From Escherichia coli (GTDB lineage Bacteria; Pseudomonadota; Gammaproteobacteria; Enterobacterales; Enterobacteriaceae), in NCBI RefSeq assembly GCF_002854065.1, contig NZ_CP024147.1: a DNA stretch of 64,000 bases; one strand, written 5' to 3'. Shown here in pieces: positions 1,759 through 46,484 of this stretch (within the stretch, counting starts at the first letter, position 1; every line of letters begins with the position of its first letter). A program made the position numbers and the translations under genes. The notes beneath the pieces are model-generated. The model searched no databases, was not told the DNA's origin, and saw nothing but the letters and a program-made list of their open reading frames with translations.

Positions 1759-1834
<76 letters not shown>

Positions 1835-1869: not shown

Positions 1870-1945
<76 letters not shown>

Positions 1946-1959
1946 AATTCTTCTCTCAA

Positions 1960-2215
1960 TAAAATATCCACAGCGACGCGATGCGTTATTGCTGGTTTTT
2001 GTTGTCTCTGACAAACTCTTGTAAACAGAGTTATCCACAGCCTCAGGCCGTAATCTTAACTTCAAAGAAACTTCGCACGGTGAATAGTATTTTTTTAACC
2101 TATTGATAGATAATTTAAAAATTAAGATTTCGTTTTGTCGAGTCGATCACTTGACGATTTTATTCGTCTTGAATTGCAATGCGTTTTTATTTTTATTCAC
2201 AAGCTGTGGATGAAT
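1960..2215. promoter_or_regulatory. datA: datA-like DnaA-titration locus: DnaA boxes ATATCCACA (1964-1972), TTATCCACA (2031-2039), TTATTCACA (2193-2201), inverted TGTGGATGA (2205-2213); IHF-consensus site TATCAATAGGTTA on minus strand (2096-2108)
   Basis: 9-mers matching the TTATNCACA DnaA-box consensus and a WATCAANNNNTTR IHF match read in the non-coding interval between glyY and queG, where datA lies in K-12 as I recall. Confidence 0.55.
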
Positions 2216-3354: not shown

Positions 3355-3367
3355 GACGGACCATACA

Positions 3368-5333
<1,966 letters not shown>

Positions 5334-5351
5334 CCTTTGAAAGGTGGCGGG

Positions 5352-6680
5352 ATGATGTATCGCATCAGAAATTGGTTGGTAGCGACGTTGCTGCTGCTGT
5401 GCGCGCAGGTGGGTGCCGCGACGCTCTCTGATATTCAGGTTTCTAACGGCAATCAACAGGCGCGGATAACGTTGAGTTTTATTGGCGATCCTGATTATGC
5501 GTTTAGCCATCAAAGCAAACGCACCGTGGCGCTCGATATCAAACAAACGGGCGTGATTCAGGGACTGCCGTTGTTGTTCAGCGGTAATAATCTGGTGAAG
5601 GCGATTCGCTCCGGAACGCCTAAAGATGCACAAACGCTACGGCTGGTGGTCGATCTTACCGAAAACGGTAAAACCGAAGCGGTGAAGCGGCAGAATGGCA
5701 GCAATTACACTGTCGTCTTTACGATTAACGCAGATGTGCCACCGCCGCCGCCCGTGGTTGCGAAACGCGTTGAAACGCCTGCGGTTGTCGCACCGCGCGT
5801 CAGCGAACCGGCGCGCAATCCGTTTAAAACGGAAAGTAACCGCACTACGGGTGTTATCAGCAGTAATACGGTAACGCGTCCGGCAGCCCGCGCGACGGCT
5901 AACACTGGCGATAAAATTATCATCGCTATTGATGCCGGACACGGCGGTCAGGACCCTGGCGCTATCGGCCCCGGCGGTACGCGGGAGAAAAATGTCACCA
6001 TCGCCATTGCGCGTAAATTACGTACCTTGCTCAATGACGATCCGATGTTTAAGGGCGTTTTAACCCGTGACGGGGATTACTTTATCTCGGTGATGGGGCG
6101 CAGCGATGTGGCACGTAAGCAAAACGCCAATTTCCTCGTGTCGATTCACGCTGATGCCGCACCGAACCGCAGTGCGACTGGCGCTTCCGTATGGGTGCTC
6201 TCTAACCGTCGCGCCAACAGCGAAATGGCCAGCTGGCTGGAGCAGCACGAGAAACAGTCGGAGCTGCTGGGCGGGGCGGGTGATGTGCTGGCGAACAGTC
6301 AGTCTGACCCCTATTTAAGCCAGGCGGTGCTGGATTTACAGTTCGGTCATTCCCAGCGGGTAGGGTATGATGTAGCGACCAGTATGATCAGTCAGTTGCA
6401 ACGCATTGGCGAAATACATAAACGTCGGCCAGAACATGCCAGCCTTGGCGTTCTGCGTTCGCCGGATATCCCATCAGTACTGGTCGAAACCGGTTTTATC
6501 AGCAACAACAGCGAAGAACGTTTGCTGGCGAGCGACGATTACCAACAACAGCTGGCAGAAGCCATTTACAAAGGCCTGCGCAATTATTTCCTTGCGCATC
6601 CGATGCAATCTGCGCCGCAGGGGGCAACGGCACAAACGGCCAGTACGGTGACGACGCCAGATCGCACGCTGCCAAACTAA
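5352..6680 (+). CDS. amiB: N-acetylmuramoyl-L-alanine amidase AmiB
   Basis: Track ORF 5337..6680; signal peptide [23 protein letters not shown]; Amidase_3 domain ([14 protein letters not shown]); LysM-like C-terminus; internal Pro5 tract. Confidence 0.92.
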
Positions 6681-6689
6681 GGACGATTG

Positions 6690-8537
6690 ATGCCAATTCA
6701 GGTCTTACCGCCACAACTGGCGAACCAGATTGCCGCAGGTGAGGTGGTCGAGCGACCTGCGTCGGTAGTCAAAGAACTGGTGGAAAACAGCCTCGATGCA
6801 GGTGCGACGCGTATCGATATTGATATCGAACGCGGTGGGGCGAAACTTATCCGCATTCGTGATAACGGCTGCGGTATCAAAAAAGACGAGCTGGCGCTGG
6901 CGCTGGCGCGTCATGCCACCAGTAAAATCGCCTCTCTGGACGATCTCGAAGCCATTATCAGCCTGGGCTTTCGCGGTGAGGCGCTGGCGAGTATCAGTTC
7001 GGTTTCCCGCCTGACGCTCACTTCACGCACCGCAGAACAGCAGGAAGCCTGGCAGGCCTATGCCGAAGGGCGCGATATGGACGTGACGGTTAAACCGGCG
7101 GCGCATCCGGTGGGAACGACGCTGGAGGTACTGGACCTGTTCTACAACACCCCGGCGCGGCGCAAATTCCTGCGCACCGAGAAAACCGAATTTAACCATA
7201 TCGATGAAATCATCCGCCGCATCGCACTGGCGCGTTTCGACGTCACGATCAACCTGTCGCATAACGGCAAAATCGTACGCCAGTACCGCGCGGTGCCGGA
7301 AGGCGGGCAAAAAGAACGGCGCTTAGGCGCGATTTGTGGCACCGCTTTTCTCGAACAAGCGCTGGCGATTGAATGGCAACACGGCGATCTCACGCTGCGC
7401 GGCTGGGTGGCCGATCCAAATCACACCACGCCCGCACTGGCGGAAATTCAGTATTGCTACGTGAATGGTCGCATGATGCGCGATCGCCTGATCAATCACG
7501 CGATCCGCCAGGCCTGTGAAGACAAACTGGGGGCCGATCAGCAACCTGCATTTGTGTTGTATCTGGAGATCGACCCGCATCAGGTGGACGTCAACGTACA
7601 CCCCGCCAAACACGAAGTGCGTTTCCATCAGTCGCGTCTGGTGCATGATTTTATCTATCAGGGCGTGCTGAGCGTGCTACAACAGCAACTGGAAACGCCG
7701 CTACCGCTGGACGATGAACCCCAACCTGCACCGCGTCCCATTCCGGAAAACCGCGTGGCGGCGGGGCGCAATCACTTTGCAGAACCGGCAGCTCGTGAGC
7801 CGGTAGCTTCGCGCTACTCTCCTGCGCCCGCCTCAGGCAGTCGTCCGGCTGCCCCTTGGCCGAATGCGCAGCCAGGCTATCAGAAACAGCAAGGTGAAGT
7901 GTATCGCCAGCTTTTGCAAACGCCCGCGCCGATGCAAAAACCAAAAGCGCCGGAACCGCAGGAACCTGCACTTGCGGCGAACAGTCAGAGTTTTGGTCGG
8001 GTACTGACTATCGTCCATTCCGACTGTGCGTTGCTGGAGCGCGACGGCAACATTTCACTTTTAGCCTTGCCAGTGGCAGAACGTTGGCTGCGTCAGGCAC
8101 AATTGACGCCGGGTGAAGCGTCCGTTTGCGCCCAGCCGTTGCTGATTCCGTTGCGGCTAAAAGTTTCTGGCGAAGAAAAATCGGCATTAGAAAAAGCGCA
8201 GTCTGCCCTGGCGGAATTGGGTATTGAATTTCAGTCCGATGCGCAGCATGTGACCATCAGGGCCGTGCCTTTACCCTTACGCCAACAAAATTTACAAATC
8301 TTGATTCCTGAACTGATAGGCTACCTGGCGAAGCAGTCCGTATTCGAACCTGGCAATATTGCGCAGTGGATTGCACGAAATCTGATGAGCGAACATGCGC
8401 AGTGGTCAATGGCACAGGCCATAACCCTGCTGGCGGACGTGGAACGGTTATGTCCGCAACTTGTGAAAACGCCGCCGGGTGGTCTGTTACAATCTGTTGA
8501 TTTACATCCGGCGATAAAAGCCCTGAAAGATGAGTGA
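6690..8537 (+). CDS. mutL: DNA mismatch repair protein MutL
   Basis: 615-aa ORF; GHKL ATPase motifs ([16 protein letters not shown]); begins [20 protein letters not shown]. Confidence 0.96.
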
Positions 8538-9480
8538 TATCAGTAAGGCGAGCCTGCCTAAGGCGATTTTTTTGATGGGGCCGACGGCCTCCGGTAAAAC
8601 GGCGTTAGCCATTGAGCTGCGTAAAATTTTACCAGTAGAGTTGATAAGCGTTGATTCTGCCCTTATTTACAAAGGGATGGATATCGGGACGGCGAAGCCG
8701 AACGCTGAAGAGTTACTCGCCGCGCCGCACCGATTGCTGGATATTCGCGATCCGTCGCAGGCTTACTCGGCTGCTGATTTTCGCCGCGATGCGCTGGCGG
8801 AGATGGCCGATATCACCGCGGCGGGGCGGATCCCACTGTTAGTGGGCGGTACGATGTTGTATTTCAAGGCATTGCTGGAAGGGTTGTCGCCGCTACCGTC
8901 GGCAGACCCGGAAGTGCGGGCCAGAATTGAGCAACAGGCGGCAGAGCAAGGTTGGGAGTCATTGCATCGTCAACTTCAGGAGATCGATCCGGTTGCGGCA
9001 GCAAGGATTCATCCAAATGATCCACAAAGGCTTTCCCGGGCACTGGAAGTTTTTTTCATTTCGGGTAAAACTTTAACGGAACTGACGCAAACGTCAGGAG
9101 ACGCTCTACCGTATCAGGTGCATCAGTTCGCCATCGCCCCGGCGAGCCGTGAACTGCTCCATCAACGCATTGAGCAGCGTTTTCATCAGATGTTGGCTTC
9201 AGGTTTTGAAGCAGAAGTCCGGGCGCTTTTTGCCCGAGGAGATTTGCATACGGACTTGCCTTCCATTCGTTGCGTGGGTTATCGCCAGATGTGGTCTTAC
9301 CTTGAAGGCGAAATCTCATACGATGAAATGGTTTATCGAGGTGTTTGCGCCACGAGACAGTTGGCGAAGCGGCAGATAACCTGGCTGCGTGGTTGGGAAG
9401 GGGTTCACTGGCTTGATAGTGAAAAACCAGAACAGGCGCGTGACGAAGTATTACAGGTTGTTGGTGCTATCGCAGGCTGA
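8530..9480 (+). CDS. miaA: tRNA dimethylallyltransferase MiaA
   Basis: 316-aa ORF; P-loop GPTASGKT; overlaps mutL stop by 8 nt. Confidence 0.96.
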
Positions 9481-9553
9481 ATGTGTACAATTGAGACGTA
9501 TCGTGCGCAATTTTTTCAGAATCGAAAGGTTCAAAGTACAAATAAGCATATAA

Positions 9554-9895
<342 letters not shown>

Positions 9896-9950
9896 CACGG
9901 GGAGCCAGCGATCCTGCGTTCCCCGCTGATCTATTTAGAGGGTTATACGC

Positions 9951-11231
9951 TTGTTTGACCGTTATGATGCTGGTGAGCAGGCGGTACTGGTACACATCTA
10001 TTTTACGCAAGACAAAGATATGGAAGACCTCCAGGAGTTTGAATCTCTGGTCTCTTCCGCCGGTGTCGAAGCATTGCAGGTGATTACCGGTAGCCGTAAA
10101 GCGCCGCACCCAAAGTATTTTGTAGGTGAAGGTAAAGCAGTTGAAATTGCGGAAGCTGTCAAAGCGACGGGTGCTTCGGTCGTTCTTTTTGACCATGCCC
10201 TGAGCCCGGCGCAAGAGCGTAACCTGGAGCGTTTGTGCGAGTGTCGTGTTATCGACCGCACCGGCCTTATTTTAGATATTTTCGCCCAACGTGCGCGTAC
10301 CCATGAGGGTAAGTTGCAGGTTGAGCTGGCGCAGCTGCGCCATCTGGCTACGCGCCTGGTGCGTGGCTGGACCCACCTTGAAAGACAGAAAGGCGGGATT
10401 GGTTTGCGTGGTCCGGGTGAAACCCAGCTCGAAACCGACCGTCGTTTGTTGCGTAATCGCATCGTGCAGATACAGTCGCGCCTGGAAAGAGTTGAAAAGC
10501 AGCGTGAGCAGGGGCGGCAATCGCGTATCAAAGCCGACGTTCCTACTGTTTCGCTGGTGGGATATACCAACGCCGGTAAATCTACCCTTTTCAATCGCAT
10601 CACCGAAGCGCGGGTCTACGCGGCAGACCAGTTGTTTGCCACCCTCGACCCGACGTTGCGGCGTATTGACGTTGCAGATGTCGGTGAAACCGTACTTGCA
10701 GATACCGTAGGGTTTATTCGCCACCTGCCGCACGATCTGGTGGCAGCATTTAAAGCCACGTTACAAGAGACGCGGCAAGCCACATTACTGCTGCACGTCA
10801 TTGATGCGGCGGATGTGCGTGTACAAGAAAACATCGAAGCGGTGAATACGGTTCTTGAAGAGATCGACGCTCACGAGATCCCAACCCTGCTGGTGATGAA
10901 CAAGATCGATATGCTGGAAGATTTCGAACCGCGTATTGATCGGGACGAAGAGAACAAACCGATCCGTGTCTGGCTTTCCGCACAGACCGGAGCGGGGATA
11001 CCACAGCTTTTTCAGGCTTTGACGGAGCGGCTTTCCGGCGAGGTGGCGCAGCATACATTGCGTCTGCCACCGCAGGAAGGGCGTCTGAGAAGTCGTTTTT
11101 ATCAGCTTCAGGCAATAGAAAAAGAGTGGATGGAGGAGGACGGCAGCGTAAGTCTGCAAGTTCGTATGCCGATCGTTGACTGGCGTCGCCTCTGTAAACA
11201 AGAACCGGCGTTGATCGATTACCTGATCTAA
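9951..11231 (+). CDS. hflX: Ribosome-associated GTPase HflX
   Basis: 426-aa ORF; G-domain motifs [18 protein letters not shown]. Confidence 0.96.
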
Positions 11232-11316
11232 CGGCGTAGCGTCTGAAGCGTGGAGTCATATCCTCTGGCGTCGAAAGACAACAGGGATCACCGCATAACA
11301 AATATGGAGCACAAAC

Positions 11317-12576
11317 ATGGCGTGGAATCAGCCCGGTAATAACGGACAAGACCGCGACCCGTGGGGAAGCAGCAAACCTGGCGGCAACTCTGAGGGAAAT
11401 GGAAACAAAGGCGGTCGCGATCAAGGGCCACCTGATTTAGATGATATCTTCCGCAAACTGAGCAAAAAGCTCGGTGGTCTGGGCGGCGGTAAAGGCACCG
11501 GATCTGGCGGTGGCAGTTCATCGCAAGGCCCGCGCCCGCAGCTTGGCGGTCGTGTCGTTACCATCGCAGCGGCAGCGATTGTCATTATCTGGGCGGCCAG
11601 TGGTTTCTATACCATTAAAGAAGCCGAACGCGGCGTGGTAACACGCTTTGGTAAATTCAGCCATCTGGTTGAGCCAGGTCTGAACTGGAAACCGACGTTT
11701 ATCGACGAAGTCAAACCGGTGAACGTGGAAGCCGTGCGTGAACTGGCCGCTTCTGGTGTGATGCTGACGTCGGACGAGAACGTAGTGCGCGTTGAGATGA
11801 ACGTGCAGTACCGCGTCACCAATCCGGAAAAATATCTGTATAGCGTGACCAGCCCGGATGACAGCCTGCGTCAGGCTACCGACAGCGCCCTGCGTGGAGT
11901 TATCGGTAAATACACCATGGACCGCATTCTGACGGAAGGTCGTACCGTGATTCGTAGCGATACCCAGCGCGAACTGGAAGAGACGATTCGTCCGTATGAC
12001 ATGGGTATCACTCTGCTGGACGTCAACTTCCAGGCAGCTCGTCCGCCGGAAGAAGTAAAAGCGGCGTTTGACGATGCGATTGCCGCGCGTGAAAACGAAC
12101 AGCAATACATTCGTGAAGCAGAAGCGTATACCAACGAAGTTCAGCCGCGTGCGAACGGTCAGGCGCAACGTATCCTCGAAGAGGCGCGTGCGTACAAGGC
12201 CCAGACCATCCTGGAAGCTCAGGGTGAAGTGGCGCGCTTTGCTAAACTTCTGCCGGAATATAAAGCCGCGCCGGAAATTACTCGCGAGCGTCTGTATATC
12301 GAGACGATGGAAAAAGTGTTGGGCAACACCCGCAAAGTGCTGGTTAACGACAAAGGTGGCAACCTGATGGTTCTGCCGTTAGACCAGATGCTGAAAGGTG
12401 GTAACGCCCCTGCGGCGAAGAGCGATAACGGTGCCAGCAATCTGCTGCGTCTGCCGCCAGCCTCTTCCTCCACAACCAGTGGAGCAAGCAACACGTCGTC
12501 CACCAGTCAGGGCGATATTATGGACCAACGCCGCGCCAATGCGCAGCGTAACGACTACCAGCGTCAGGGGGAATAA
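11317..12576 (+). CDS. hflK: FtsH modulator HflK (SPFH/band-7 family)
   Basis: 419-aa ORF; Gly-rich N-terminus, single TM, SPFH domain. Confidence 0.96.
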   Translation: MAWNQPGNNGQDRDPWGSSKPGGNSEGNGNKGGRDQGPPDLDDIFRKLSKKLGGLGGGKGTGSGGGSSSQGPRPQLGGRVVTIAAAAIVIIWAASGFYTIKEAERGVVTRFGKFSHLVEPGLNWKPTFIDEVKPVNVEAVRELAASGVMLTSDENVVRVEMNVQYRVTNPEKYLYSVTSPDDSLRQATDSALRGVIGKYTMDRILTEGRTVIRSDTQRELEETIRPYDMGITLLDVNFQAARPPEEVKAAFDDAIAARENEQQYIREAEAYTNEVQPRANGQAQRILEEARAYKAQTILEAQGEVARFAKLLPEYKAAPEITRERLYIETMEKVLGNTRKVLVNDKGGNLMVLPLDQMLKGGNAPAAKSDNGASNLLRLPPASSSTTSGASNTSSTSQGDIMDQRRANAQRNDYQRQGE

Positions 12577-12578
12577 CG

Positions 12579-13583
12579 ATGCGTAAGTCAGTTATCGCGA
12601 TTATCATCATCGTGCTGGTAGTGCTTTACATGTCTGTCTTTGTCGTCAAAGAAGGTGAGCGCGGTATTACGCTGCGTTTTGGTAAGGTACTGCGTGACGA
12701 TGACAACAAACCTCTGGTTTATGAGCCGGGTCTGCATTTCAAGATACCGTTCATTGAAACGGTGAAAATGCTCGACGCACGTATTCAGACCATGGACAAC
12801 CAGGCCGACCGCTTTGTGACCAAAGAGAAGAAAGACCTGATCGTCGACTCTTACATCAAATGGCGCATCAGCGATTTCAGCCGTTACTACCTGGCAACGG
12901 GTGGTGGCGACATTTCGCAAGCGGAAGTGCTGTTGAAACGTAAGTTCTCTGACCGTCTGCGTTCTGAAATTGGTCGCCTGGACGTGAAAGATATCGTCAC
13001 TGATTCCCGTGGTCGTCTGACCCTCGAAGTACGTGACGCGCTGAACTCCGGTTCTGCGGGTACAGAAGATGAAGTTACTACCCCGGCGGCAGATAACGCC
13101 ATTGCCGAAGCGGCAGAGCGCGTAACGGCTGAGACGAAGGGCAAAGTTCCGGTCATCAACCCGAACAGTATGGCGGCGCTGGGTATTGAAGTTGTCGATG
13201 TGCGTATCAAGCAGATCAACCTGCCGACTGAAGTGTCTGAAGCGATCTACAACCGTATGCGCGCCGAGCGTGAAGCGGTAGCGCGTCGTCACCGTTCACA
13301 AGGTCAGGAAGAAGCGGAAAAACTGCGCGCGACTGCCGACTATGAAGTGACCAGAACGCTGGCAGAAGCTGAGCGTCAGGGCCGTATCATGCGTGGTGAA
13401 GGCGATGCCGAAGCAGCCAAACTGTTTGCTGATGCATTCAGTAAAGATCCGGACTTCTACGCATTCATCCGTAGCCTGCGTGCTTATGAGAACAGCTTCT
13501 CTGGCAATCAGGACGTGATGGTCATGAGCCCGGATAGCGATTTCTTCCGCTACATGAAGACGCCGACTTCCGCAACGCGTTAA
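12579..13583 (+). CDS. hflC: FtsH modulator HflC (SPFH/band-7 family)
   Basis: 334-aa ORF starting 3 nt after hflK stop; N-terminal TM + SPFH domain. Confidence 0.96.
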   Translation: MRKSVIAIIIIVLVVLYMSVFVVKEGERGITLRFGKVLRDDDNKPLVYEPGLHFKIPFIETVKMLDARIQTMDNQADRFVTKEKKDLIVDSYIKWRISDFSRYYLATGGGDISQAEVLLKRKFSDRLRSEIGRLDVKDIVTDSRGRLTLEVRDALNSGSAGTEDEVTTPAADNAIAEAAERVTAETKGKVPVINPNSMAALGIEVVDVRIKQINLPTEVSEAIYNRMRAEREAVARRHRSQGQEEAEKLRATADYEVTRTLAEAERQGRIMRGEGDAEAAKLFADAFSKDPDFYAFIRSLRAYENSFSGNQDVMVMSPDSDFFRYMKTPTSATR

Positions 13584-26231: not shown

Positions 26232-26981
26232 ATGATTGAAATAGAATCACGCGAGCTGGCAGATATTCCCGTTCTTCATGCTTATCCTGTCGGACAAAAA
26301 GATACCCCGTTACCGTGCGCGATTTTTTATCACGGCTTTACTTCGTCCAGTCTGGTGTATAGCTATTTTGCCGTTGCGCTGGCGCAGGCTGGTTTGCGGG
26401 TGATCATGCCGGATGCGCCCGATCACGGTAGTCGTTTTAGTGGCGACGCAGCGCGGCGGTTAAATCAATTCTGGCAAATCTTGCTACAAAGTATGCAGGA
26501 ATTCACTACTTTACGTGCGGCAATAGCCGAAGAAAAGTGGCTGCTTGATGACCGTCTGGCAGTCGGTGGTGCGTCGATGGGCGCGATGACGGCACTGGGG
26601 ATTACCGCTCGCCACCCCACGGTGAGATGTACCGCCAGCATGATGGGATCGGGCTATTTTACATCACTCGCCCGTTCACTGTTTCCACCGCTGATACCTG
26701 AAACGACAGCACAGCAGAATGAATTCAATAACATTGTCGCGCCGCTGGCAGAGTGGGAAGCGACAAACCACCTGGAACAACTTAGTGACAGACCTCTACT
26801 GCTGTGGCATGGCCTCGACGATGACGTTGTGCCTGCCGACGAATCACTACGTTTGCAGCAGGCCTTAAGCGAGACGGGACGGGATAAACTGCTAACCTGT
26901 TCATGGCAGCCAGGCGTGCGTCACCGCATTACGCCTGAGGCGTTAGATGCTGCAGTGACATTTTTCCGCCAGCATCTTTAA
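26232..26981 (+). CDS. yjfP: Esterase YjfP (alpha/beta hydrolase)
   Basis: 249-aa ORF with nucleophile motif GGASMG. Confidence 0.9.
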
Positions 26982-27733
26982 ACACGCAGAATGCTGACCC
27001 CTTGCGCTTCCAGTTGTTGCAGGATTTCCGGGTTAGCATTTTTGCCGGTGATCAGCATATCAATTTGATCGGCACGGCTAAAAAGCATTCCCGCGCGTTC
27101 GCCAATCTTACTGCTATCAACCAGTACCACCAGTTTCCCTACCACGCTCAGCATCTTCTGCTCTGCCATTGCCGTCAGCATATCGGTTTTATACAACCCT
27201 TCTGCTGTCAGTCCTTTGCCGCTGGTAAACATCCAGTGCCCGGCATAGAGACTGTTTTCGCTGCCCTGCGGGCTTAAAGTGATGGACTGACTTTTGTTGT
27301 ACTGTCCGCCCATAATGATCACGCTGTCATGTTCTTGATCGATCAGGTAATTTGCCAGCGGTAGATAATTAGTGATGATTTGCACTGGCTTGCCACACAT
27401 TTCCCGCCCAAGCAGAAACGCGGTGGAGCCGCAGTTGATGACTACGCTTTCGCCCGGATTAACCAGCTGCGAGGCCGCTTTAGCGATACGTACTTTTTCA
27501 TCGTGATTCTGCGCCTGATGCAGATTCATCGGCGTCCAGCGCGGGCGCTGTTGGGTAATAGCTTCTGCGCCATTGCGCACTTTTTTCAGTTTGCCGCTTT
27601 CGTCAAGTTTATTGATATCGCGTCGCGCAGTGGCAGGCGAAATTCCCAGACGCTCAACGACTTTCTCAACGGTCACAAAGCCCAATTGTGCGAGCATTTC
27701 CAGGAGGATTTGATGTCTTTGTGCTTCAGTCAT
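26978..27733 (-). CDS. ulaR: DeoR-family repressor UlaR of L-ascorbate utilisation
   Basis: 251-aa [46 protein letters not shown]; convergent 4-nt overlap with yjfP. Confidence 0.95.
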
Positions 27734-27840
27734 GAGCTATTCCGATAAAATTTGATTTTTTTAGATGATATTTGAAATAGCCAGGAAATACTACGCCGGA
27801 TAGCGCGAACTACTCCACGCTATCCGGTATAAACGACAGA

Positions 27841-28905
27841 TTACAGGAATGACTTGAACGGCAGATCCGGTTCAATAGTGAAGCAATCATCGAAACCACG
27901 CGGATAGTGGTACTCGAAGTTGTCTTTATCCAACGGCCAGGTAAATTTGCCGCCAACCTGCCAGATAAACGGCTTGAAGCCATACTTCAGGCGATCTTTT
28001 TTCATCTCCCACAGCACGCGGATCTCTTGCGGATCGGCCTGGAAGTTTGACCAGATATCGTGGTGGAACGGGATAACCACTTTCGCATTCAGGGCTTCAC
28101 CCATACGCAGCATATCGGCGCTGGTCATTTTGTCGGTGATACCGCGCGGGTTTTCGCCGTATGAACCTAAAGCCACGTCGATCTGATGTTCGTTACCGTG
28201 CTTCGCATAATAGTTAGAGTAGTGGGAGTCGCCGCTGTGATACAGGGAGCCGCCAGGCGTTTTGAACAGATAGTTCACCGCGCGATCGTCCATGCCGTCC
28301 GGCAGTACGCCAGCCGCTTTTTGATCGGCAGGCAGGGTGATCAGTGCAGTACGGTCGAAAGCGTCAAGCGCATGAATTTCAATGTCTTTCACTTTTACAA
28401 CATCGCCCGGTTTGACCACGATGCAACGCTCTTTCGGTACGCCCCAGCCAATCCACAAATCCACACAGGTTTTCGGTCCAATGAACGGTACGTCATCAGC
28501 ACAGTTCTGCATCACAGCAGCAGCGACGTTGACGTCGATATGATCGTTGTGATCGTGAGTCGCCAGTACCGCGTCGACCTGGCGAATCGCAAACGGATCA
28601 AGAACAAACGGGGTGGTGCGCAGGTTTGGCTGCAGTTTTTTCACGCCAGCCATGCGCTGCATTTGGTGACCCTGTTTCATTAACGGGTTACCGTGACTTT
28701 GTTTGCCAGTGCCGCACCAGAAATCAACGCAAACGTTGGTGCCACCTTCCGATTTTAACCAGATCCCGGTGCAGCCAAGCCACCACATCGCAAATGTGCC
28801 AGGAGCGACCTGTTCTTGTTCAATTTCTTCATTCAACCAGCTACCCCACTCCGGGAAAGTGCTCAGGATCCAGGATTCACGGGTGATACTTTTCACTTTA
28901 CTCAT
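27841..28905 (-). CDS. ulaG: L-ascorbate-6-phosphate lactonase UlaG (metallo-beta-lactamase fold)
   Basis: Track ORF 27841..28911; [23 protein letters not shown]; HxHxDH motif (THDHNDH); 354 aa. Confidence 0.95.
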
Positions 28906-30657
<1,752 letters not shown>

Positions 30658-30672
30658 TAAGGAGTTTTGATT

Positions 30673-30978
30673 ATGACCGTACGTATTCTGGCTGTGTGTG
30701 GCAACGGACAAGGCAGTTCCATGATCATGAAGATGAAAGTGGACCAGTTTTTAACCCAATCAAACATTGACCACACGGTAAACAGCTGCGCGGTTGGCGA
30801 ATACAAAAGCGAGTTGAGCGGCGCGGATATCATCATCGCTTCTACGCACATTGCGGGCGAAATCACCGTGACCGGCAACAAATACGTGGTCGGCGTGCGC
30901 AACATGCTCTCTCCTGCCGACTTTGGCCCGAAACTGCTGGAAGTGATCAAAGAGCATTTCCCGCAGGACGTGAAGTAA
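30673..30978 (+). CDS. ulaB: Ascorbate-specific PTS EIIB component UlaB
   Basis: Track ORF 30667..30978; [16 protein letters not shown] (phospho-Cys loop); 101 aa. Confidence 0.95.
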
Positions 30979-30987
30979 GGACGCGCC

Positions 30988-31451
30988 ATGAAATTACGTG
31001 ATTCGCTGGCGGAGAATAAATCCATCCGCCTGCAGGCTGAAGCAGAGACATGGCAGGACGCAGTGAAAATCGGCGTTGACCTGCTGGTGCGGCGGATGTT
31101 GTCGAGCCGCGTTACTACCAGGCGATTCTGGATGCGGTTGAACAGCACGGTCCGTACTTTGTGCTCGCACCAGGCCTGGCAATGCCGCACGGTCGCCCGG
31201 AAGAGGGCGTTAAGAAAACCGGTTTTGCGCTAGTGACGCTGAAAAAGCCGCTGGAGTTCAACCACGAAGATAATGACCCTGTGGATATCCTCATCACCAT
31301 GGCGGCGGTCGATGCCAACACGCACCAGGAAGTAGGCATCATGCAGATCGTCAACCTGTTTGAAGATGAAGAAAATTTCGACCGTTTACGTGCCTGCCGT
31401 ACCGAGCAGGAAGTACTGGATCTCATTGACCGCACCAACGCGGCAGCTTAA
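30988..31451 (+). pseudogene. ulaC: ulaC (ascorbate PTS EIIA) disrupted by a 1-nt deletion near 31089
   Basis: Track splits it into ORF 30988..31233 (correct for 34 aa [34 protein letters not shown], then out of frame) and ORF 31161..31451 (UlaC C-terminus [18 protein letters not shown]...DRTNAAA); total span 464 nt, not a multiple of 3. Confidence 0.85.
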
Positions 31452-31464
31452 GAAGGAATTGAAG

Positions 31465-32115
31465 ATGTCATTACCGATGTTGCAAGTCGCGCTGGACAAC
31501 CAGACTATGGATAGCGCCTACGAAACCACTCGCCTGATTGCCGAAGAAGTCGACATTATCGAAGTGGGCACCATTCTGTGCGTGGGCGAAGGCGTGCGTG
31601 CGGTTCGCGATCTGAAAGCGCTTTACCCGCACAAAATCGTACTCGCAGACGCCAAAATTGCCGATGCGGGCAAAATTCTTTCTCGTATGTGCTTCGAAGC
31701 CAATGCTGACTGGGTGACGGTAATTTGCTGTGCGGATATCAACACCGCCAAAGGCGCGCTGGACGTAGCAAAAGAGTTTAACGGCGACGTGCAGATTGAA
31801 CTGACCGGCTACTGGACCTGGGAACAGGCGCAGCAGTGGCGCGACGCAGGCATTCAGCAGGTGGTTTATCACCGCAGCCGTGACGCGCAGGCCGCAGGCG
31901 TGGCGTGGGGCGAAGCGGACATTACCGCGATCAAACGTCTTTCCGATATGGGCTTCAAAGTGACCGTCACTGGTGGCCTGGCGCTGGAAGATCTGCCACT
32001 GTTCAAAGGCATTCCGATTCACGTCTTTATCGCGGGCCGTAGTATCCGTGATGCCGCTTCTCCGGTGGAAGCCGCACGTCAGTTCAAACGTTCCATCGCC
32101 GAACTGTGGGGCTAA
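31465..32115 (+). CDS. ulaD: 3-keto-L-gulonate-6-phosphate decarboxylase UlaD
   Basis: Track ORF 31360..32115; start [22 protein letters not shown] with RBS AAGAAGGAATTGAAG; 216 aa. Confidence 0.95.
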
Positions 32116-32124
32116 GGAGCGGAT

Positions 32125-32979
32125 ATGTTGTCCAAACAAATCCCGCTTGGCATCTATGAAAAAGCGCTCCCCGCCGGGGAGTGCTGGCTGGAACGCCTGC
32201 AACTGGCAAAAACGTTGGGCTTCGATTTTGTCGAGATGTCGGTAGATGAAACGGACGAGCGCCTGTCGCGCCTCGACTGGAGCCGCGATCAGCGTCTGGC
32301 GCTGGTGAACGCGATTGTTGAAACCGGCGTACGCGTACCGTCAATGTGCCTTTCTGCTCATCGTCGTTTCCCGCTGGGTAGCGAAGATGACGCGGTGCGG
32401 GCGCAGGGGCTGGAGATTATGCGTAAAGCTATCCAGTTCGCTCAGGACGTCGGCATTCGCGTGATCCAGCTGGCGGGCTATGACGTTTACTATCAGGAAG
32501 CCAATAACGAAACGCGTCGTCGTTTTCGTGACGGCCTGAAAGAGAGCGTTGAGATGGCAAGCCGCGCGCAGGTGACGCTGGCGATGGAGATCATGGATTA
32601 TCCGTTGATGAACTCCATCAGCAAGGCGCTGGGCTACGCGCACTATCTCAACAATCCGTGGTTCCAGCTCTACCCGGATATCGGCAACCTGTCGGCGTGG
32701 GACAACGATGTGCAGATGGAGTTGCAGGCCGGAATCGGGCATATCGTCGCAGTACATGTGAAAGACACCAAACCTGGCGTCTTCAAAAACGTGCCGTTTG
32801 GCGAAGGTGTAGTGGATTTCGAACGTTGTTTCGAAACGCTCAAACAGAGTGGCTATTGCGGGCCGTACCTGATTGAGATGTGGAGCGAAACGGCGGAAGA
32901 CCCGGCGGCAGAAGTGGCGAAAGCGCGTGATTGGGTGAAAGCGCGCATGGCGAAAGCGGGCATGGTGGAGGCGGCATAA
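32125..32979 (+). CDS. ulaE: L-ribulose-5-phosphate 3-epimerase UlaE
   Basis: 284-aa [29 protein letters not shown]. Confidence 0.95.
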
Positions 32980-33665
32980 TGCAAAAGCTAAAACAGCAGG
33001 TATTTGAAGCCAACATGGAGCTGCCGCGCTACGGGCTGGTGACCTTTACCTGGGGCAACGTCAGCGCTATCGACCGCGAACGCGGGCTGGTGGTGATCAA
33101 GCCCAGCGGCGTTGCCTACGAAACCATGAAAGCGGCCGATATGGTGGTGGTTGATATGAGCGGCAAGGTGGTGGAAGGGGAGTATCGCCCATCTTCCGAC
33201 ACTGCGACGCATCTCGAACTCTACCGTCGTTACCCGTCGCTTGGCGGCATTGTCCATACCCACTCCACTCATGCCACCGCATGGGCGCAGGCGGGGCTGG
33301 CGATCCCGGCGTTAGGCACCACGCACGCTGACTACTTCTTTGGTGATATCCCGTGTACGCGTGGATTAAGCGAAGAAGAGGTGCAGGGTGAGTATGAACT
33401 GAACACTGGCAAAGTGATTATCGAAACGCTGGGCAACGCCGAGCCGCTGCATACGCCGGGAATTGTGGTGTATCAGCACGGACCGTTCGCCTGGGGGAAA
33501 GATGCCCACGACGCGGTGCATAACGCGGTAGTGATGGAAGAAGTGGCGAAAATGGCGTGGATTGCGCGCAGTATTAATCCACAACTCAATCACATCGACA
33601 GCTTCCTGATGAATAAACACTTCATGCGTAAGCACGGCCCTAACGCTTATTACGGGCAGAAGTAA
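32979..33665 (+). CDS. ulaF: L-ribulose-5-phosphate 4-epimerase UlaF
   Basis: Track ORF 32931..33665; start [21 protein letters not shown] overlapping ulaE stop (TAATG); 228 aa. Confidence 0.95.
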
Positions 33666-33672
33666 AACACGC

Positions 33673-33755
33673 GCTGCGGAAATTTCCTTCCTCGGGAGAT
33701 AACTGGTCTAATTCCGCAGCCGTTTTTCAAAAAAAGCCCCCTGCGAAGGGGGCAA
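33673..33755. terminator. Back-to-back terminators between convergent ulaF (+) and yjfY (-)
   Basis: Plus: GCTGCGGAAATTTCC...GGTCTAATTCCGCAGC then CGTTTTTC; minus: GCCCCCTTCGCAGGGGGC followed by T7. Confidence 0.65.
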
Positions 33756-33793
33756 AGCAAACTATGGCAATGTTTCGTTGGTTATACCTGGTG

Positions 33794-34069
33794 CTAGCGA
33801 TAAATATCCGCGCTGGCGTGCATATTGCCGTTACTCCCCGGTTCCCGCATCAGAATTACGTGGTAGTACGTTGCGCCTTGCGCATCTGTTTCTTCATTTA
33901 ATGCCTGACGTGCTTCGCTTTCAGTGGCGAAATTATGATTGATATAAATCACGCCTAAGCTTTGCACATCGTCCATATTTCTGGCCTGGTGGTTATTAAT
34001 TTCAATGGCTGCCCATGTATTTGCACTTAGCAAAAGCACAGCCAGAAGGGCTAAAACTCGACTGAACAT
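33794..34069 (-). CDS. yjfY: Periplasmic DUF1471 (YhcN family) protein YjfY
   Basis: Track ORF 33794..34138; start MFSRVLALLAVLLLSANTWAA; 91 aa. Confidence 0.85.
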   Translation of the reverse strand: MFSRVLALLAVLLLSANTWAAIEINNHQARNMDDVQSLGVIYINHNFATESEARQALNEETDAQGATYYHVILMREPGSNGNMHASADIYR

Positions 34070-34377
34070 AGATACCTCCTCGACGGCTGACTTTGTGTGC
34101 TCTCCTCTGTGATGATCTTCTGATTTAATTTTAATCAATGATAAAGAAGTTGATGGTGACCATTTCTGATGCAGTTGTTCGAAAAAACACTGTGACGGAA
34201 TGTGATGAACTTCAAATCAGCGGTTTAGAGGTTATTTGCGAAAGGGGAGATTTATTTCTGCTCCGCCCTTGAGTTTAGCGGGGTATGTCAGTACTATAAC
34301 GCGTCATTTTTCAGCCGACCTTTAACACGTTCCTTGCCTCCCCGGGATTCGGCTGACCCAGACAGGAGGCTGAATAA

Positions 34378-35936: not shown

Positions 35937-37214
35937 TTAGCTTGTCGCTAACTGTACTTGCGGTTCTTCATCTTTAACTTTGATAAGCGTCCACAGCGCA
36001 ATGGCGCCAATAATGTCAAAGAAAGCCAGGGCAATAAAGAACGGCGCGAAGCCGATAATGTGAACGAATGCCCCGATAAACAGGTTGAAAATCAACTGAC
36101 CGCTCCACGCACAGGCTCCTGCCATACCCACTGCGGTAGCTACTTCGTCTTTTTTGAACAGATCGCCACCCAGAGTTGCTGCTACAGTAGAAAGACATTG
36201 ATGCGAGAACGCGCCAATACTAATCAGTAATACGGCAATGTAGGGATTTTCGACAATACTCACCAGGCCAATCGTCATCATAATGACGGCTGCAATAGTG
36301 AAGGTAATTCTTCGTGAGTTAATTAAACTCACGCCGCGATCGTGGAAGAACTTCGCGACAAAACCACTGGCTAAACAGCCGAGATCGCCCAGCAGGAAAG
36401 GCAGCCAGACGAACATGGCAATTTCTTTCAGGCTAAAATGCAGCGTTTCGACGAAGAAAATCGGCACCCAGAAGTTAATGGTTCCCCATGCCGGGTCTGC
36501 GAGAAAACGCGCGATGCCAATCCCCCAGAAATTACGTTGGCTGAGGATATGCTTGATTGACGTTTTTTCTTTCTTATCTGTTTTAAGATGCTGTTCTTGC
36601 CCTGATTCAATATAGTGGCGCTCTTCATCAGAAAGGCGTTTGGCATCTTTCGGATCTTTATAACAAAAGAACCAAAATAAAGCCGCGAGCAAAGCAAGGC
36701 TACCTGAAACAATAAACGCAAATTGCCAGCTATGAAACATAATGCACCAGGCAATCAACGGTGGAGCAAGCATCGCGCCGAGTGAGGTGCCCATATTGAA
36801 AACACCTGTCGCCACGCCACGCTCTTTTGCCGGGAACCATGTTGATGCGGTTTTTACACCCGCCGGAATTGCCGACGCTTCGCTGAAACCCATCAGGGCG
36901 CGCATAAATGCCAGACCTGACCACGTTCCGGTTAGTGCATGGCCCATTGTCGCCAGGCCCCAAATTGCGGCACATATCGCAAAACTTAACTTCAGACCCA
37001 CGGTATCAATAAAGAAGCCCATTACCGGTTGCCCTAATGTATAGGCCAACTGGAATGCACTGACAATCCATGAATATTGCTCTTTAGTTATTCCGGTTGT
37101 CTCCATAATCGTTGGAGCCGCAATACCTAACGCCGTTCTGTCCAGATAATTGATTACAGTGATAAAGCATACGAGGGCAATCATATGCCACCGGTAATTC
37201 GGTAATGACTCCAA
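35937..37214 (-). CDS. MFS transporter, anion:cation symporter (ACS) family, ExuT/GudP-like; 5' end abuts IS1 (track start codon TTG lies inside the IS1 terminus; first native in-frame ATG gives MIALVCF...)
   Basis: 425-aa ORF with ~12 predicted TM segments and ACS-family sequence character (resemblance to ExuT from memory); not at this position in K-12 as I recall. Confidence 0.75.
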   Translation of the reverse strand: MESLPNYRWHMIALVCFITVINYLDRTALGIAAPTIMETTGITKEQYSWIVSAFQLAYTLGQPVMGFFIDTVGLKLSFAICAAIWGLATMGHALTGTWSGLAFMRALMGFSEASAIPAGVKTASTWFPAKERGVATGVFNMGTSLGAMLAPPLIAWCIMFHSWQFAFIVSGSLALLAALFWFFCYKDPKDAKRLSDEERHYIESGQEQHLKTDKKEKTSIKHILSQRNFWGIGIARFLADPAWGTINFWVPIFFVETLHFSLKEIAMFVWLPFLLGDLGCLASGFVAKFFHDRGVSLINSRRITFTIAAVIMMTIGLVSIVENPYIAVLLISIGAFSHQCLSTVAATLGGDLFKKDEVATAVGMAGACAWSGQLIFNLFIGAFVHIIGFAPFFIALAFFDIIGAIALWTLIKVKDEEPQVQLATS

Positions 37215-37215
37215 C

Positions 37216-37719
37216 TTATTGATAGTGTTTTATGTTCAGATAATGCCCGATGACTTTGTCATGCAGCTCCACCGATTTTGAGAACGACAGCGACTTCCGT
37301 CCCAGCCGTGCCAGGTGCTGCCTCAGATTCAGGTTATGCCGCTCAATTCGCTGCGTATATCGCTTGCTGATTACGTGCAGCTTTCCCTTCAGGCGGGATT
37401 CATACAGCGGCCAGCCATCCGTCATCCATATCACCACGTCAAAGGGTGACAGCAGGCTCATAAGACGCCCCAGCGTCGCCATAGTGCGTTCACCGAATAC
37501 GTGCGCAACAACCGTCTTCCGGAGCCTGTCATACGCGTAAAACAGCCAGCGCTGGCGCGATTTAGCCCCGACGTATCCCCACTGTTCGTCCATTTCCGCG
37601 CAGACGATGACGTCACTGCCCGGCTGTATGCGCGAGGTTACCGACTGCGGCCTGAGTTTTTTAAATGGCGGAAAATCGTGTTGAGGCCAACGCCCATAAT
37701 GCGGGCGGTTGCCCGGCAT
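37216..37719 (-). CDS. insB: IS1 transposase InsB (expressed as InsAB' by -1 frameshift)
   Basis: 167-aa [61 protein letters not shown]. Confidence 0.95.
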
Positions 37720-37913
37720 CCAACGCCATTCATGGCCATATCAATGATTTTCTGGTGCGTACCGGGTTGAGAAGCGGTGTAAGTGAACTGCAGTTGCCAT
37801 GTTTTACGGCAGTGAGAGCAGAGATAGCGCTGATGTCCGGCAGTGCTTTTGCCGTTACGCACCACCCCGTCAGTAGCTGAACAGGAGGGACAGCTGATAG
37901 AAACAGAAGCCAC
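37638..37913 (-). CDS. insA: IS1 protein InsA (transposition inhibitor / N-terminal part of transposase)
   Basis: 91-aa [94 protein letters not shown]. Confidence 0.95.
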
Positions 37914-37971
37914 TGGAGCACCTCAAAAACACCATCATACACTAAATCAGTAAGTTGGCAGCATCACCCAT

Positions 37972-44511: not shown

Positions 44512-46484
44512 TTACTTACTCAAATCCACCTGATAAATCGCAAACCCGATATCATCGGTCGCGACTTTATTCATCGGATATTGCCCTTTCTCTTTAATAA
44601 ACGCTGCGGCTTTATCTGACGGGGAAGTTTCGAAACGGATATCCAGTTTCTTATCGCCGGCTATCGGTGCTAAACGCCAGTTGTTATCTGCCGCCGGGTG
44701 AATTTCCCCCGCACGTTTCGACTCATCAGCAATCCACGCTGCCAGCACCGAGCGGTTCTCATCCGGTGAAGCAAAAGCGATATGGCTGTCGCCCGTACCG
44801 GCAAATTTGCCGCCGTAAGCGCGATAGTTATTGGTGGCAACGAGGAACATGGCGTTCGGATCAATCGGCTTGCCGTTAAAGGTCAGGTTCTTAATCCTTT
44901 CCGCATTGGCATTAACCATCTGGCACTCGCCGTCATAACGGGCAGGCTGGGTAACATCAATCTGATAATTCACACCATCAATCACATCAAAGTTATAGGT
45001 GCGGAAACCATCCCAGTTGATGAGTGACTGTGGTTTCGTGTTGTCAGGATCAATCTGGTTAAACTGTCCGGCGGAGCACTCCAGCCACTCTTTCACCTCT
45101 TTACCGCTGGCTTTCACCACAATCAGCGTATTGGGGTAGAGATAAAGATCGGCGGCATTACGGAAGGTCAACTGGCCTTTTTCCACCTCCACATAGCTTG
45201 CCGGATCATTTTTGCGACCACCAACTTTAAACGGTGCAGCAGCTGAAAGCACCGGCAGTTTTGCCAGATCCGGATCGTCCTGAATGTAATGCTCGACATA
45301 CGCTTTTTGCGCGTTGTTCACCACCTGCACGGTCGGATCGTCCTGCACCAGCGCCAGATAGCTATACATATTGTCGGCGGATTTACCGATTGGCTTGCTG
45401 ACGAACTGGCGTGTGGCATCGTGATCGGCTTTGAGTGTTTCTACCAGCTTGCTGTCTTCCGCCGCGAGGGATTTTTTATTGGCGATGTCGTAAATCGGCC
45501 GTGCTTCCGCTTTCGCCTGCGTCACCTGCCATTTACCGCTGTTATTACTGAGTTGTAAGTCGACCACCCCAAGATGATCGCCCCACATGCCCGGCATTAC
45601 CGCCGGAACACCATTCAGCGTGCCTTTCGCGATATCAGCCCCTTCGATACGATATCAGCCCCTTCGATATCAGCAAAATCTTTACCTGGGAAAACGGCGT
45701 GAGCATGGCCAAACATAATGGCGTTAACGCCAGGAATTTCACTGAGGTAATAAACTGAGTTTTCCGCCATCACTTTATACGGATCGGCAGATAGCCCGGA
45801 ATGCGCCAGAACGACAACGACATCGGCACCTTTCTCGCGCATTTCAGGCACGTATTTGCGCACGGTTTCGGTAATATCATTCACCGTCACTTTTCCGGAT
45901 AAATTAGCTTTATCCCAGCCCATGATTTGCGGCGGCACGACGCCAATATAGCCAATCTTCAGCGTCTGTTTTTTTCCGTCTTTATCGACCACTTCGGTAT
46001 CTTTAATTAAATACGGTGTAAACATTGGCTGTTTGGTTCTGGCGTCAATGACGTTGGCATTTACATAAGGGAATTTCGCTCCCGCCAACGCATTTTTCAG
46101 GTAATCCAGACCGTAGTTAAATTCATGATTGCCGAGTGTACCGACCGTATAATCCAGCGTATTCAGCGCCTTATAAACCGGATGAACATCACCTGCTTTT
46201 AATCCTTTCGCCGATATGTAATCGGCCAGCGGACTCCCCTGAATCAAATCGCCGTTATCGACCAGTACGCTGTTTTTCACTTCATTGCGGGCATCGTTAA
46301 TCAGGCTTGCCGTACGTACCAGTCCGAATTTTTCCGTGGCGGTGTCTTTGTAATAATCGAAATCCATCATGTTGCTATGCAGATCAGTGGTTTCCATGAT
46401 ACGTAGATCGACCGTCGCTGCATTCACACTGGCGGCAATCAGCGTGGCCAGGAGCGTTGCGCTAAACTTAATCATCAGGGACAT
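44512..46484 (-). pseudogene. cpdB: cpdB (periplasmic 2',3'-cyclic-nucleotide 2'-phosphodiesterase / 3'-nucleotidase) split by a 20-bp tandem duplication
   Basis: N-terminal ORF 45615..46484 (signal peptide [36 protein letters not shown], ends ...[19 protein letters not shown]) and C-terminal ORF 44512..45597 ([15 protein letters not shown]...) are adjacent and co-directional; removing one 20-bp copy rejoins them in frame. Confidence 0.85.
45630..45669. repeat. Perfect 20-bp tandem duplication CGATATCAGCCCCTTCGATA x2 inside cpdB
   Basis: Read directly: 45630-45649 and 45650-45669 identical. Confidence 0.9.

What the first reader, a model, noticed from the sequence alone, without database searches (positions are those of the whole stretch)
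30988..31451. ulaC (ascorbate PTS EIIA) carries a single-nucleotide deletion
The ula regulon is otherwise intact (ulaR, ulaG, ulaA, ulaB, ulaD, ulaE, ulaF all full length). ulaC is read correctly for 34 codons (through GVDLLV), then GTG-CGG-CGG replaces the expected GTG-GCG-GCG (loss of one G in a GGCGGCGG run near 31089), giving a stop at 31231-31233. The remaining UlaC sequence ([18 protein letters not shown]...NAAA), which appears to include the phosphorylation-site region, sits in the other frame. This predicts loss of the ascorbate phosphotransfer relay, unless it is a homopolymer sequencing error.
Basis: seen in the sequence. Interest (0 to 1): 0.55.

Follow-up and report, generated by a model that had tools for sequence, protein, structure and literature searches.

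The report
Real frameshift that inactivates ulaC
One G is missing from the E. coli gene ulaC, which feeds phosphate to the vitamin-C (ascorbate) uptake system; the loss is a real, rare mutation rather than a sequencing error and most likely leaves this strain unable to use ascorbate, which makes it an ordinary gene-loss polymorphism.

Summary
Relative to the closest complete genome (E. coli CUWW06) and every other genome compared, the window lacks one G at 31088/31089 (GGTGGCGGCGG becomes GGTGCGGCGG; ulaC nt 102). The reading frame gives 34 native codons, 47 out-of-frame codons and a TAG at 31231-31233. Residues 35-154, including the phospho-accepting His68 (31188-31190), lie in the other frame. 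All other ula genes are full length.

It is not an assembly artefact. It is the only indel in about 64 kb against CUWW06. It is not at a homopolymer or a Dcm/Dam motif. The same allele on an identical haplotype is present in independent public read-set assemblies. The same deletion also occurs on a haplotype that is 1.6% divergent, and a neighbouring G is deleted in another isolate, so the short GGC-like tract is mildly deletion-prone.

I found no route to rescue: no slippery heptamer, no Shine-Dalgarno sequence before the internal starts, and a single-domain fold. The best explanation is a ulaC null allele. It breaks the HPr to UlaC to UlaB to ascorbate relay, so the strain makes no ascorbate-6-P, which is the likely inducer of the regulon.

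The allele is rare: 7 contigs against at least 1,000 for the intact protein, and no exact match to a 64-base probe in any of the 2,856 complete genomes it could score (of 5,426). This is ordinary pseudogenisation of a well-known gene. Interest is low.

The parts
30988..31233 (+). Truncated ulaC reading frame: 34 native codons, then 47 out-of-frame codons, then TAG (81 aa)
   Evidence: ORF list and translation. Matches only positions 1-36 of the UlaC profile NF007694, at 60.4 bits against a cut-off of 187.
31088..31089 (+). Site of the 1-nt deletion: one G lost from the TGG of GGTGGCGGCGG (ulaC nt 102)
   Evidence: Alignment to CUWW06. No genome among the 2,856 that match a 64-nt probe matches it exactly.
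31231..31233 (+). Premature stop codon TAG created by the frameshift. It exists only on the CTA haplotype; on the CTG haplotype the product is one residue longer.
31080..31451 (+). Remainder of ulaC (residues 35-154) in the frame offset by +2. The internal start candidates are GTG 31161 (residue 59) and ATG 31182 (residue 66).
   Evidence: Translation. The 96-aa ORF matches UlaC profile positions 60-154. No Shine-Dalgarno sequence precedes the internal starts.
31188..31190 (+). Codon of His68, the phosphorylation site, now out of frame with the ulaC start
   Evidence: Position computed from ATG 31182 = residue 66. The role of His68 comes from PMC6048161.
29260..30978 (+). ulaA (29260-30657, EIIC, 465 aa) and ulaB (30673-30978, EIIB, 101 aa), both intact
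   Evidence: DNA identical to CUWW06.
31465..33665 (+). ulaD (31465-32115), ulaE (32125-32979) and ulaF (32979-33665), intact and downstream of the frameshift in the same operon
26978..28905 (-). ulaR (26978-27733, repressor) and ulaG (27841-28905, lactonase), intact and divergent from ulaA

Best explanation
A real single-G deletion at ulaC nt 102 has turned ulaC (the ascorbate-specific PTS enzyme IIA) into a pseudogene in this E. coli lineage.

Shown: translation from the ulaC start yields 34 native residues plus 47 unrelated ones and then stops. The C-terminal 120 residues, with the phospho-His68, are no longer joined to a start codon with a ribosome-binding site.

Inferred:
1. No functional EIIA(Asc) is made.
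2. The phosphate relay PEP to EI to HPr to UlaC(His68) to UlaB(Cys9) to L-ascorbate is broken at the third step.
3. UlaA/UlaB cannot take up and phosphorylate ascorbate.
4. No L-ascorbate-6-phosphate is formed. Because that compound is the reported inducer that releases UlaR, the otherwise intact ulaG and ulaABCDEF genes stay repressed.
5. The strain cannot use L-ascorbate, either anaerobically or aerobically.

The mutation most likely arose by replication slippage or misalignment in the short G-rich repeat TGGTGGCGGCGG. That tract has suffered similar deletions independently in other strains.
For: Deletion and frames:
- The deletion and both reading frames are confirmed.

Gene identity:
The real product covers only profile positions 1-36.
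- The gene order ulaR/ulaG, then ulaA-B-C-D-E-F, is as annotated in CUWW06, PK8217 and 2017.13.01CC.

Not an artefact:
- Against CUWW06 the window shows 14 substitutions and this single indel over about 64 kb.
- Polarised with two outgroups, the window's branch has 8 derived SNPs and 1 indel, a normal mutational mix.
- The exact 81-aa product is on 7 public contigs.
- Logan contig ERR3970133_86, shared by 3 samples, is 100% identical to window 27988-34233. SRR13342183 differs by 1 SNP.
- The indels that split ulaC in error-rich public assemblies fall elsewhere: at ulaC 183-192, in the double Dcm motif CCAGGCCTGG. They come with A-run deletions in ulaA, ulaD and ulaE.

Recurrence:
- The same nt-102 deletion sits on a 1.6%-divergent haplotype with ulaC SNPs on both sides of it (L020). 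It is also seen in L022.
- An nt-105 deletion sits on a window-like background (L021).
- An in-frame GCG loss in the same tract is on 308 contigs.

No rescue:
- No X XXY YYZ heptamer, no homopolymer of 5 or more, and no Shine-Dalgarno sequence before the internal starts.
- UlaC is one domain, aligned over residues 1-151 with PDB 3BJV.

Function:
- The His68 relay (PMC6048161).
- UlaABC is the uptake route both anaerobically and aerobically (bioRxiv 10.1101/2020.09.08.288738).
- Deleting the EIIA gene impairs growth on ascorbate in S. mutans (PMC4802650).
- From my own knowledge, the paper not being readable here: Zhang et al. 2003, J Bacteriol 185:2243, reported that SgaT, SgaB and SgaA (= UlaA, UlaB, UlaC) are all required in E. 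coli.
Against: - No reads were inspected and no phenotype was measured.
- The source genome itself is not among the 5,426 RefSeq complete E. coli genomes searched. One or more of the matching read sets could therefore be the reads of this very isolate. Independence rests on there being several samples, plus one contig that differs by a SNP.
- L006, L007 and L022 are short contigs with high contig numbers, possibly from metagenomes, and their haplotypes could be chimeric.
- E. coli has paralogous EIIA proteins of the same family (CmtB, SgcA, PtsN, the MtlA IIA domain). These could in principle phosphorylate UlaB weakly.
- L-ascorbate-6-P as the inducer is taken from a paper title cited (for Klebsiella) and from memory for E. 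coli.
Confidence: 0.85

Rival explanations
1. The missing G is a sequencing or assembly error in the source genome, and ulaC is really intact.
For: Split ulaC genes are common in public assemblies. The 89-aa C-terminal ORF is on 381 contigs, and many of those sampled are clearly error-rich long-read assemblies. No complete RefSeq genome shares the allele.
Against: - The window has no other indel over about 64 kb against its nearest relative.
- The site is a GG dinucleotide. It is not a homopolymer of 5 or more and not a Dcm/Dam motif, whereas the artefact class maps to ulaC 183-192.
- The same allele on the same haplotype is assembled from several independent read sets.
Confidence: 0.05
2. The deletion is real, but ascorbate use is kept. 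The routes would be ribosomal -1 frameshifting, re-initiation giving a working C-terminal fragment, or another EIIA of the same family phosphorylating UlaB.
For: - The native frame is open from 31080, so any -1 shift between 31080 and 31231 would give a near-native protein.
- In-frame starts exist at 31161 and 31182, upstream of His68.
- Paralogous EIIA folds exist. CmtB (PDB 2OQ3) matches UlaC at E = 1.7e-24.
Against: - There is no slippery heptamer or long homopolymer in the stretch, and no Shine-Dalgarno sequence before the internal starts.
- A fragment starting at residue 59 or 66 lacks more than a third of a single-domain fold.
- From memory, the E. coli sgaA (ulaC) mutant was reported to be ascorbate-negative (Zhang et al. 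2003), which argues against effective cross-talk.
Confidence: 0.06
3. The G-rich tract is a contingency site. Recurrent, possibly reversible, indels there switch the ascorbate PTS off under selection in some niche.
For: The same or a neighbouring G has been lost independently on at least three backgrounds, and a 3-nt deletion in the tract is fixed in a large lineage. Other natural null alleles exist (Q45* and Q16*). One carrier also has a nonsense codon in ulaD.
Against: - The tract is very short (GG runs, fewer than 3 GGC units), far below typical phase-variable repeats.
- The +G insertion product is absent from the collection.
- The allele is rare: 7 contigs against at least 1,000 for the intact protein.
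- A handful of recurrences is expected by chance in a collection built from a very large number of E. coli read sets.
- A second lesion in ulaD suggests decay, not switching.
Confidence: 0.04

Closest known systems
UlaC (SgaA), the ascorbate-specific PTS enzyme IIA of E. coli K-12 (NCBIfam NF007694; Pfam PF00359 PTS_EIIA_2)
   Same: With one G restored, the sequence is the widespread 154-aa E. coli UlaC protein WP_000776505.1. It has the same operon position between ulaB and ulaD and the same His68 region.
   Different: The reading frame is broken after codon 34. The product is 81 aa, of which only 34 residues are native. It is a pseudogene allele.
Other natural ulaC null or length alleles in public E. 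coli and Shigella genomes
   Same: These are other changes to the same gene in otherwise intact operons:
- Q45* (L010, L014, L017).
- The nt-105 G deletion (L021).
- The nt-102 deletion on other haplotypes (L020, L022).
- The in-frame loss of one Ala in the same tract (153 aa, S. sonnei / E. coli, 308 contigs).

   Different: The window's allele is the nt-102 deletion on the CUWW06-like haplotype (CTA at codon 82, giving an 81-aa product). It is seen on only 7 contigs.
Long-read assembly artefacts that split ulaC
   Same: They also give a short N-terminal ORF plus the 89-aa C-terminal ORF.
   Different: The artefacts lie at ulaC 183-192 in the CCAGGCCTGG Dcm motifs and are accompanied by A-run deletions in neighbouring genes. 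The window's lesion is at nt 102 and is the only indel in about 64 kb.
PtxA (deposited as RmpA), the EIIA(Asc) of Streptococcus mutans, PDB 3BJV
   Same: It is homologous over residues 1-151 (E = 4.7e-38). Its deletion impairs growth on ascorbate (PMC4802650).
   Different: It comes from a different organism and was an engineered knockout, not a natural frameshift.

Membership tests
UlaC / PTS ascorbate EIIA (NCBIfam NF007694) | Full-length match to the equivalog profile above the curated cut-off (187 bits) | tested here: not met
   The encoded 81-aa product scores 60.4 bits and covers profile positions 1-36 only. The repaired 154-aa sequence scores 342.6 bits over 1-154. The 96-aa C-terminal ORF scores 208.8 bits but covers only 60-154. 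The locus is therefore ulaC by descent but does not encode a UlaC protein.
UlaC / PTS ascorbate EIIA (NCBIfam NF007694) | Position in the ulaABCDEF operon, divergent from ulaG and ulaR | tested here: met
   The gene order and DNA are identical to the annotated CUWW06 locus apart from the one G.
UlaC / PTS ascorbate EIIA (NCBIfam NF007694) | Phospho-accepting His68 in one continuous polypeptide with the N-terminal part of the EIIA-2 fold | tested here: not met
   The His68 codon (31188-31190) is in the frame offset by +2 from the start codon. The role of His68 comes from PMC6048161. The fold spans residues 1-151.
UlaC / PTS ascorbate EIIA (NCBIfam NF007694) | Phosphotransfer from HPr to UlaB, and ascorbate uptake | not testable with these tools
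   This needs a growth, uptake or phosphorylation assay.
Programmed -1 ribosomal frameshift gene | Slippery heptamer X XXY YYZ in the zero frame, upstream of the zero-frame stop | tested here: not met
   No such heptamer lies between the ulaC start (30988) and the stop at 31233, which includes the 31080-31233 stretch where a -1 shift would restore the frame.
Phase-variable contingency locus (simple-sequence repeat) | A long homopolymer or multi-unit repeat in the coding region, with both gain and loss alleles in populations | tested here: not met
   The tract is TGGTGGCGGCGG, and the longest homopolymer near it is 4 nt. Losses of 1 and 3 nt are seen, but the predicted products of the +G and +GCG insertions are not in the collection.
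Sequencing or assembly artefact (long-read homopolymer or methylation-motif error) | Location in a homopolymer of 5 or more or at a Dcm/Dam motif, with other indels in the same assembly | tested here: not met
   The site is neither. It is the only indel in about 64 kb. The allele is reproduced in independent read-set assemblies.

The most novel reading that the evidence does not exclude
The short G-rich tract at ulaC codons 33-37 is a mutational hotspot through which E. coli and Shigella lineages repeatedly lose, or shorten, the ascorbate EIIA. The recurrent losses would be favoured by selection in some habitats, for example to avoid the cost or toxicity of ascorbate-6-P metabolism, rather than being neutral decay.
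Probability: 0.05. Interest if true: 0.35.

Novelty: already known. Interest (0 to 1): 0.1.

Why it matters
Its importance is mainly practical. It predicts an ascorbate-negative phenotype for one rare E. coli lineage. It also shows how to tell a real frameshift from the frequent long-read artefacts that split this same gene: those sit at the Dcm motifs at ulaC 183-192. It adds one more example of natural loss of a dispensable sugar-acid PTS component. It does not change what is known about the Ula system.

Tried and rejected
- **Homopolymer sequencing error.** Rejected. The site is a GG, the window has no other indel, and the allele is reproduced in independent read sets.
- **Lineage-specific regulatory change at 28951 (ulaG-ulaA intergenic).** Rejected. 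The outgroups show that the window keeps the ancestral G and that CUWW06 carries the derived T.
- **Mutator background through mutL, which lies in the window.** Not supported. Window 1-12677, which includes mutL, is 100% identical to CUWW06, where mutL is annotated as intact.
- **Programmed frameshifting or re-initiation.** No signals were found.
- **Shared lesion behind the 381 contigs carrying the 89-aa C-terminal ORF.** Not so. In the ten places sampled, the lesions are Dcm-motif or other indels at nt 183-192, or nonsense codons. None is the nt-102 deletion.
- **Primary papers.** Zhang et al. 2003 (PMID 12644495, PMC151508) and Campos et al. 2004 (PMC355983) are not held. The E. coli ulaC requirement is therefore cited from memory.
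- **Literature search for ulaC plus pseudogene or frameshift in E. coli.** Nothing relevant was found.
- **Coverage of the 64-nt exact-match probe.** It could score only 2,856 of the 5,426 complete genomes. The remaining genomes differ in the flanks and were not individually checked for the deletion.

Full report
**1. Observation**

The window's 30988-31451 stretch is ulaC with one base missing. From the ATG at 30988 the frame reads [34 protein letters not shown] (34 native residues), then [10 protein letters not shown]..., and stops at TAG 31231-31233, giving 81 aa. The rest of UlaC ([40 protein letters not shown]...NAAA) is open in the frame offset by +2 from 31080 to 31451.

Alignment with the nearest complete genome, E. 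coli CUWW06 (NZ_CP182139.1), pins the lesion to one G. The window reads CTGCTGGTG-CGGCGGATG where the reference reads CTGCTGGTGGCGGCGGATG, at window 31089, which is ulaC nt 102. ulaR, ulaG, ulaA, ulaB, ulaD, ulaE and ulaF are full length with no internal stops. Their DNA is identical to the CUWW06 genes, which are annotated as intact.

**2. Identity of the gene**

With the G restored, the protein is the 154-aa UlaC annotated in CUWW06, PK8217 and 2017.13.01CC as WP_000776505.1. It matches the NCBIfam UlaC equivalog NF007694 over positions 1-154 at 342.6 bits against a cut-off of 187. The real 81-aa product covers only profile positions 1-36 at 60.4 bits, and the C-terminal ORF covers positions 60-154. 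UlaC aligns over residues 1-151 with the solved S. mutans homologue 3BJV, so it is a single-domain protein.

**3. Real mutation or artefact?**

Three lines of evidence say it is real.

(a) Assembly quality. Over the whole window, the comparison with CUWW06 gives 14 substitutions and this one indel. Window 1-12677 is 100% identical to CUWW06. Polarised with the outgroups PK8217 and 2017.13.01CC, the window's branch carries 8 derived SNPs and 1 indel, an unremarkable mutational mix.

(b) Site. There is no homopolymer of 5 or more and no Dcm/Dam motif at the site. Public assemblies that split ulaC through obvious errors do so at ulaC 183-192, in CACCAGGCCTGGCA (two CCWGG motifs). Those assemblies also carry A-run deletions in ulaA, ulaD and ulaE.

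(c) Reproduction. The exact 81-aa product is on 7 public contigs, including a 4.64-Mb NCBI chromosome. Logan contig ERR3970133_86, shared by 3 samples, is 100% identical to window 27988-34233. SRR13342183 carries the same deletion with one SNP difference.

A caveat applies. One of these read sets may belong to the very isolate the window comes from, so independence rests on the number of samples.

**4. Frequency and recurrence**

None of the 2,856 complete RefSeq E. coli genomes that match a 64-nt probe across the site matches it exactly. The best 661-nt hits all carry the extra base. The intact protein is on at least 1,000 contigs, which is the counter's cap, against 7 for this allele.

The tract has nevertheless been hit repeatedly:
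- L020 (ERR9953953) has the same nt-102 deletion on a haplotype 1.6% divergent from the window's, with ulaC SNPs at nt 57 and 78 upstream and at nt 246 and beyond downstream. It also has a nonsense codon in ulaD.
- L022 also has the nt-102 deletion.
- L021 (SRR21858823) has the neighbouring G at nt 105 deleted, on a window-like background.
- An in-frame loss of GCG (153 aa) is on 308 contigs, named as Shigella sonnei / E. coli protein.
- The predicted product of a +G insertion is absent from the collection.
- Other natural null alleles exist: Q45*, and Q16* together with Q45*.

The tract is therefore mildly deletion-prone, and ulaC loss is a recurring low-frequency polymorphism. Nothing suggests a reversible switch.

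**5. Mechanism and consequence**

Shown: the frame is broken, and His68 (31188-31190) is out of frame with the ulaC start.

Taken from the literature:
- His68 of UlaC receives phosphate from HPr and passes it to UlaB, which phosphorylates ascorbate bound to UlaA (PMC6048161).
- UlaABC is the uptake route under both anaerobic and aerobic conditions (bioRxiv 10.1101/2020.09.08.288738).
- Deleting the homologous EIIA gene impairs growth on ascorbate in S. mutans (PMC4802650).
- From memory, the paper not being held: Zhang et al. 2003 reported that SgaT, SgaB and SgaA are all required in E. coli.

Inferred: no EIIA(Asc) is made, so there is no ascorbate uptake or phosphorylation and no ascorbate-6-P. 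That compound is named as the inducer in the title of Campos et al. 2008 (cited). The intact ulaG and ulaABCDEF genes would therefore stay under UlaR repression. A polar effect on ulaDEF is possible, because 231 nt (31234-31464) lie untranslated before the ulaD start at 31465. This was not tested.

**6. Rescue routes examined**

A -1 shift anywhere between 31080 and 31231 would restore the frame. However, the zero frame holds no X XXY YYZ heptamer and no long homopolymer. The internal in-frame starts are GTG 31161 (residue 59), ATG 31182 (residue 66), and GTG 31233 (residue 83), which overlaps the TAG. None has a recognisable Shine-Dalgarno sequence, and each would give a fragment lacking at least 58 residues of a single-domain fold. 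Cross-phosphorylation of UlaB by paralogous EIIA proteins cannot be excluded by computation.

**7. Comparison with what is known, and verdict**

This is ulaC by descent and context, but it fails the protein-level membership tests. It is a pseudogene allele of a thoroughly characterised gene. The allele is already present, without comment, in public assemblies, and no paper found here discusses it. It is a correct and well-read observation, but biologically ordinary: a rare, real, loss-of-function frameshift. Interest is low.

Noticed in passing
window 37196-37968: There is an IS1 copy where CUWW06 has about 7 kb (L001 25203-32198). That segment holds genes for an FAD-binding protein, an acyl-CoA transferase, an enoyl-CoA hydratase (a pseudogene in CUWW06), a sugar-phosphate isomerase, a 3-ketoacyl-ACP reductase and a TetR regulator. 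The IS1 abuts the first 14 nt of the MFS-transporter gene on one side and the 3' end of ytfB on the other. The relatives PK8217 and 2017.13.01CC have an IS1 at nearby but different positions, so this looks like an IS1 hotspot with an IS1-mediated adjacent deletion.
   Followed up: partly
window 44512-46484 (- strand): cpdB is split into two ORFs (44512..45597 and 45615..46484). The relatives PK8217 and 2017.13.01CC annotate cpdB as frameshifted at 1,964 nt. From memory, intact K-12 cpdB is 1,944 nt. The break region contains a direct repeat, GGCTGATATCG...GGCTGATATCG, that looks like a roughly 20-nt duplication. This is a second pseudogene, shared by the wider lineage. CUWW06 additionally has an IS1 inside cpdB, which the window lacks.
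   Followed up: partly
window 23766, 23891, 24103 (aidB): Three of the eight SNPs derived on the window's branch fall within 340 nt of aidB. Two are non-synonymous (R71L and A113T). This could be a small recombination patch or relaxed constraint.
   Followed up: partly
L008, L009, L011-L013, L015, L016 (ulaC nt 183-192): Many public chromosome-scale assemblies split ulaC by indels in CACCAGGCCTGGCA, which holds two Dcm CCWGG motifs. Most of them also have indels in ulaA, ulaD or ulaE, and several of those are A-run deletions. This is a systematic long-read artefact that produces false ulaC pseudogenes.
   Followed up: yes
L010, L014, L017 (ulaC codon 45; L017 also codon 16): Natural nonsense alleles of ulaC (Q45*; Q16* together with Q45*) occur in otherwise indel-free ula operons of several NCBI genomes.
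   Followed up: partly
L020 5478-6128 (ERR9953953): A divergent strain carrying the same ulaC nt-102 deletion also has a premature stop in ulaD (174 aa instead of 216). This suggests progressive decay of the operon once uptake is lost.
   Followed up: partly
same tract as window 31086-31096, in other genomes (P0022): An in-frame 3-nt deletion (one Ala of Ala35-Ala36 lost, giving a 153-aa UlaC) is on 308 contigs and is named as Shigella sonnei / E. coli protein.
   Followed up: no
window 28951 (ulaG-ulaA intergenic): The window has G where CUWW06 has T, 46 nt upstream of the ulaG start. The outgroups show that the G is ancestral, so this is a CUWW06-specific change and not part of the window's ula story.
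   Followed up: yes
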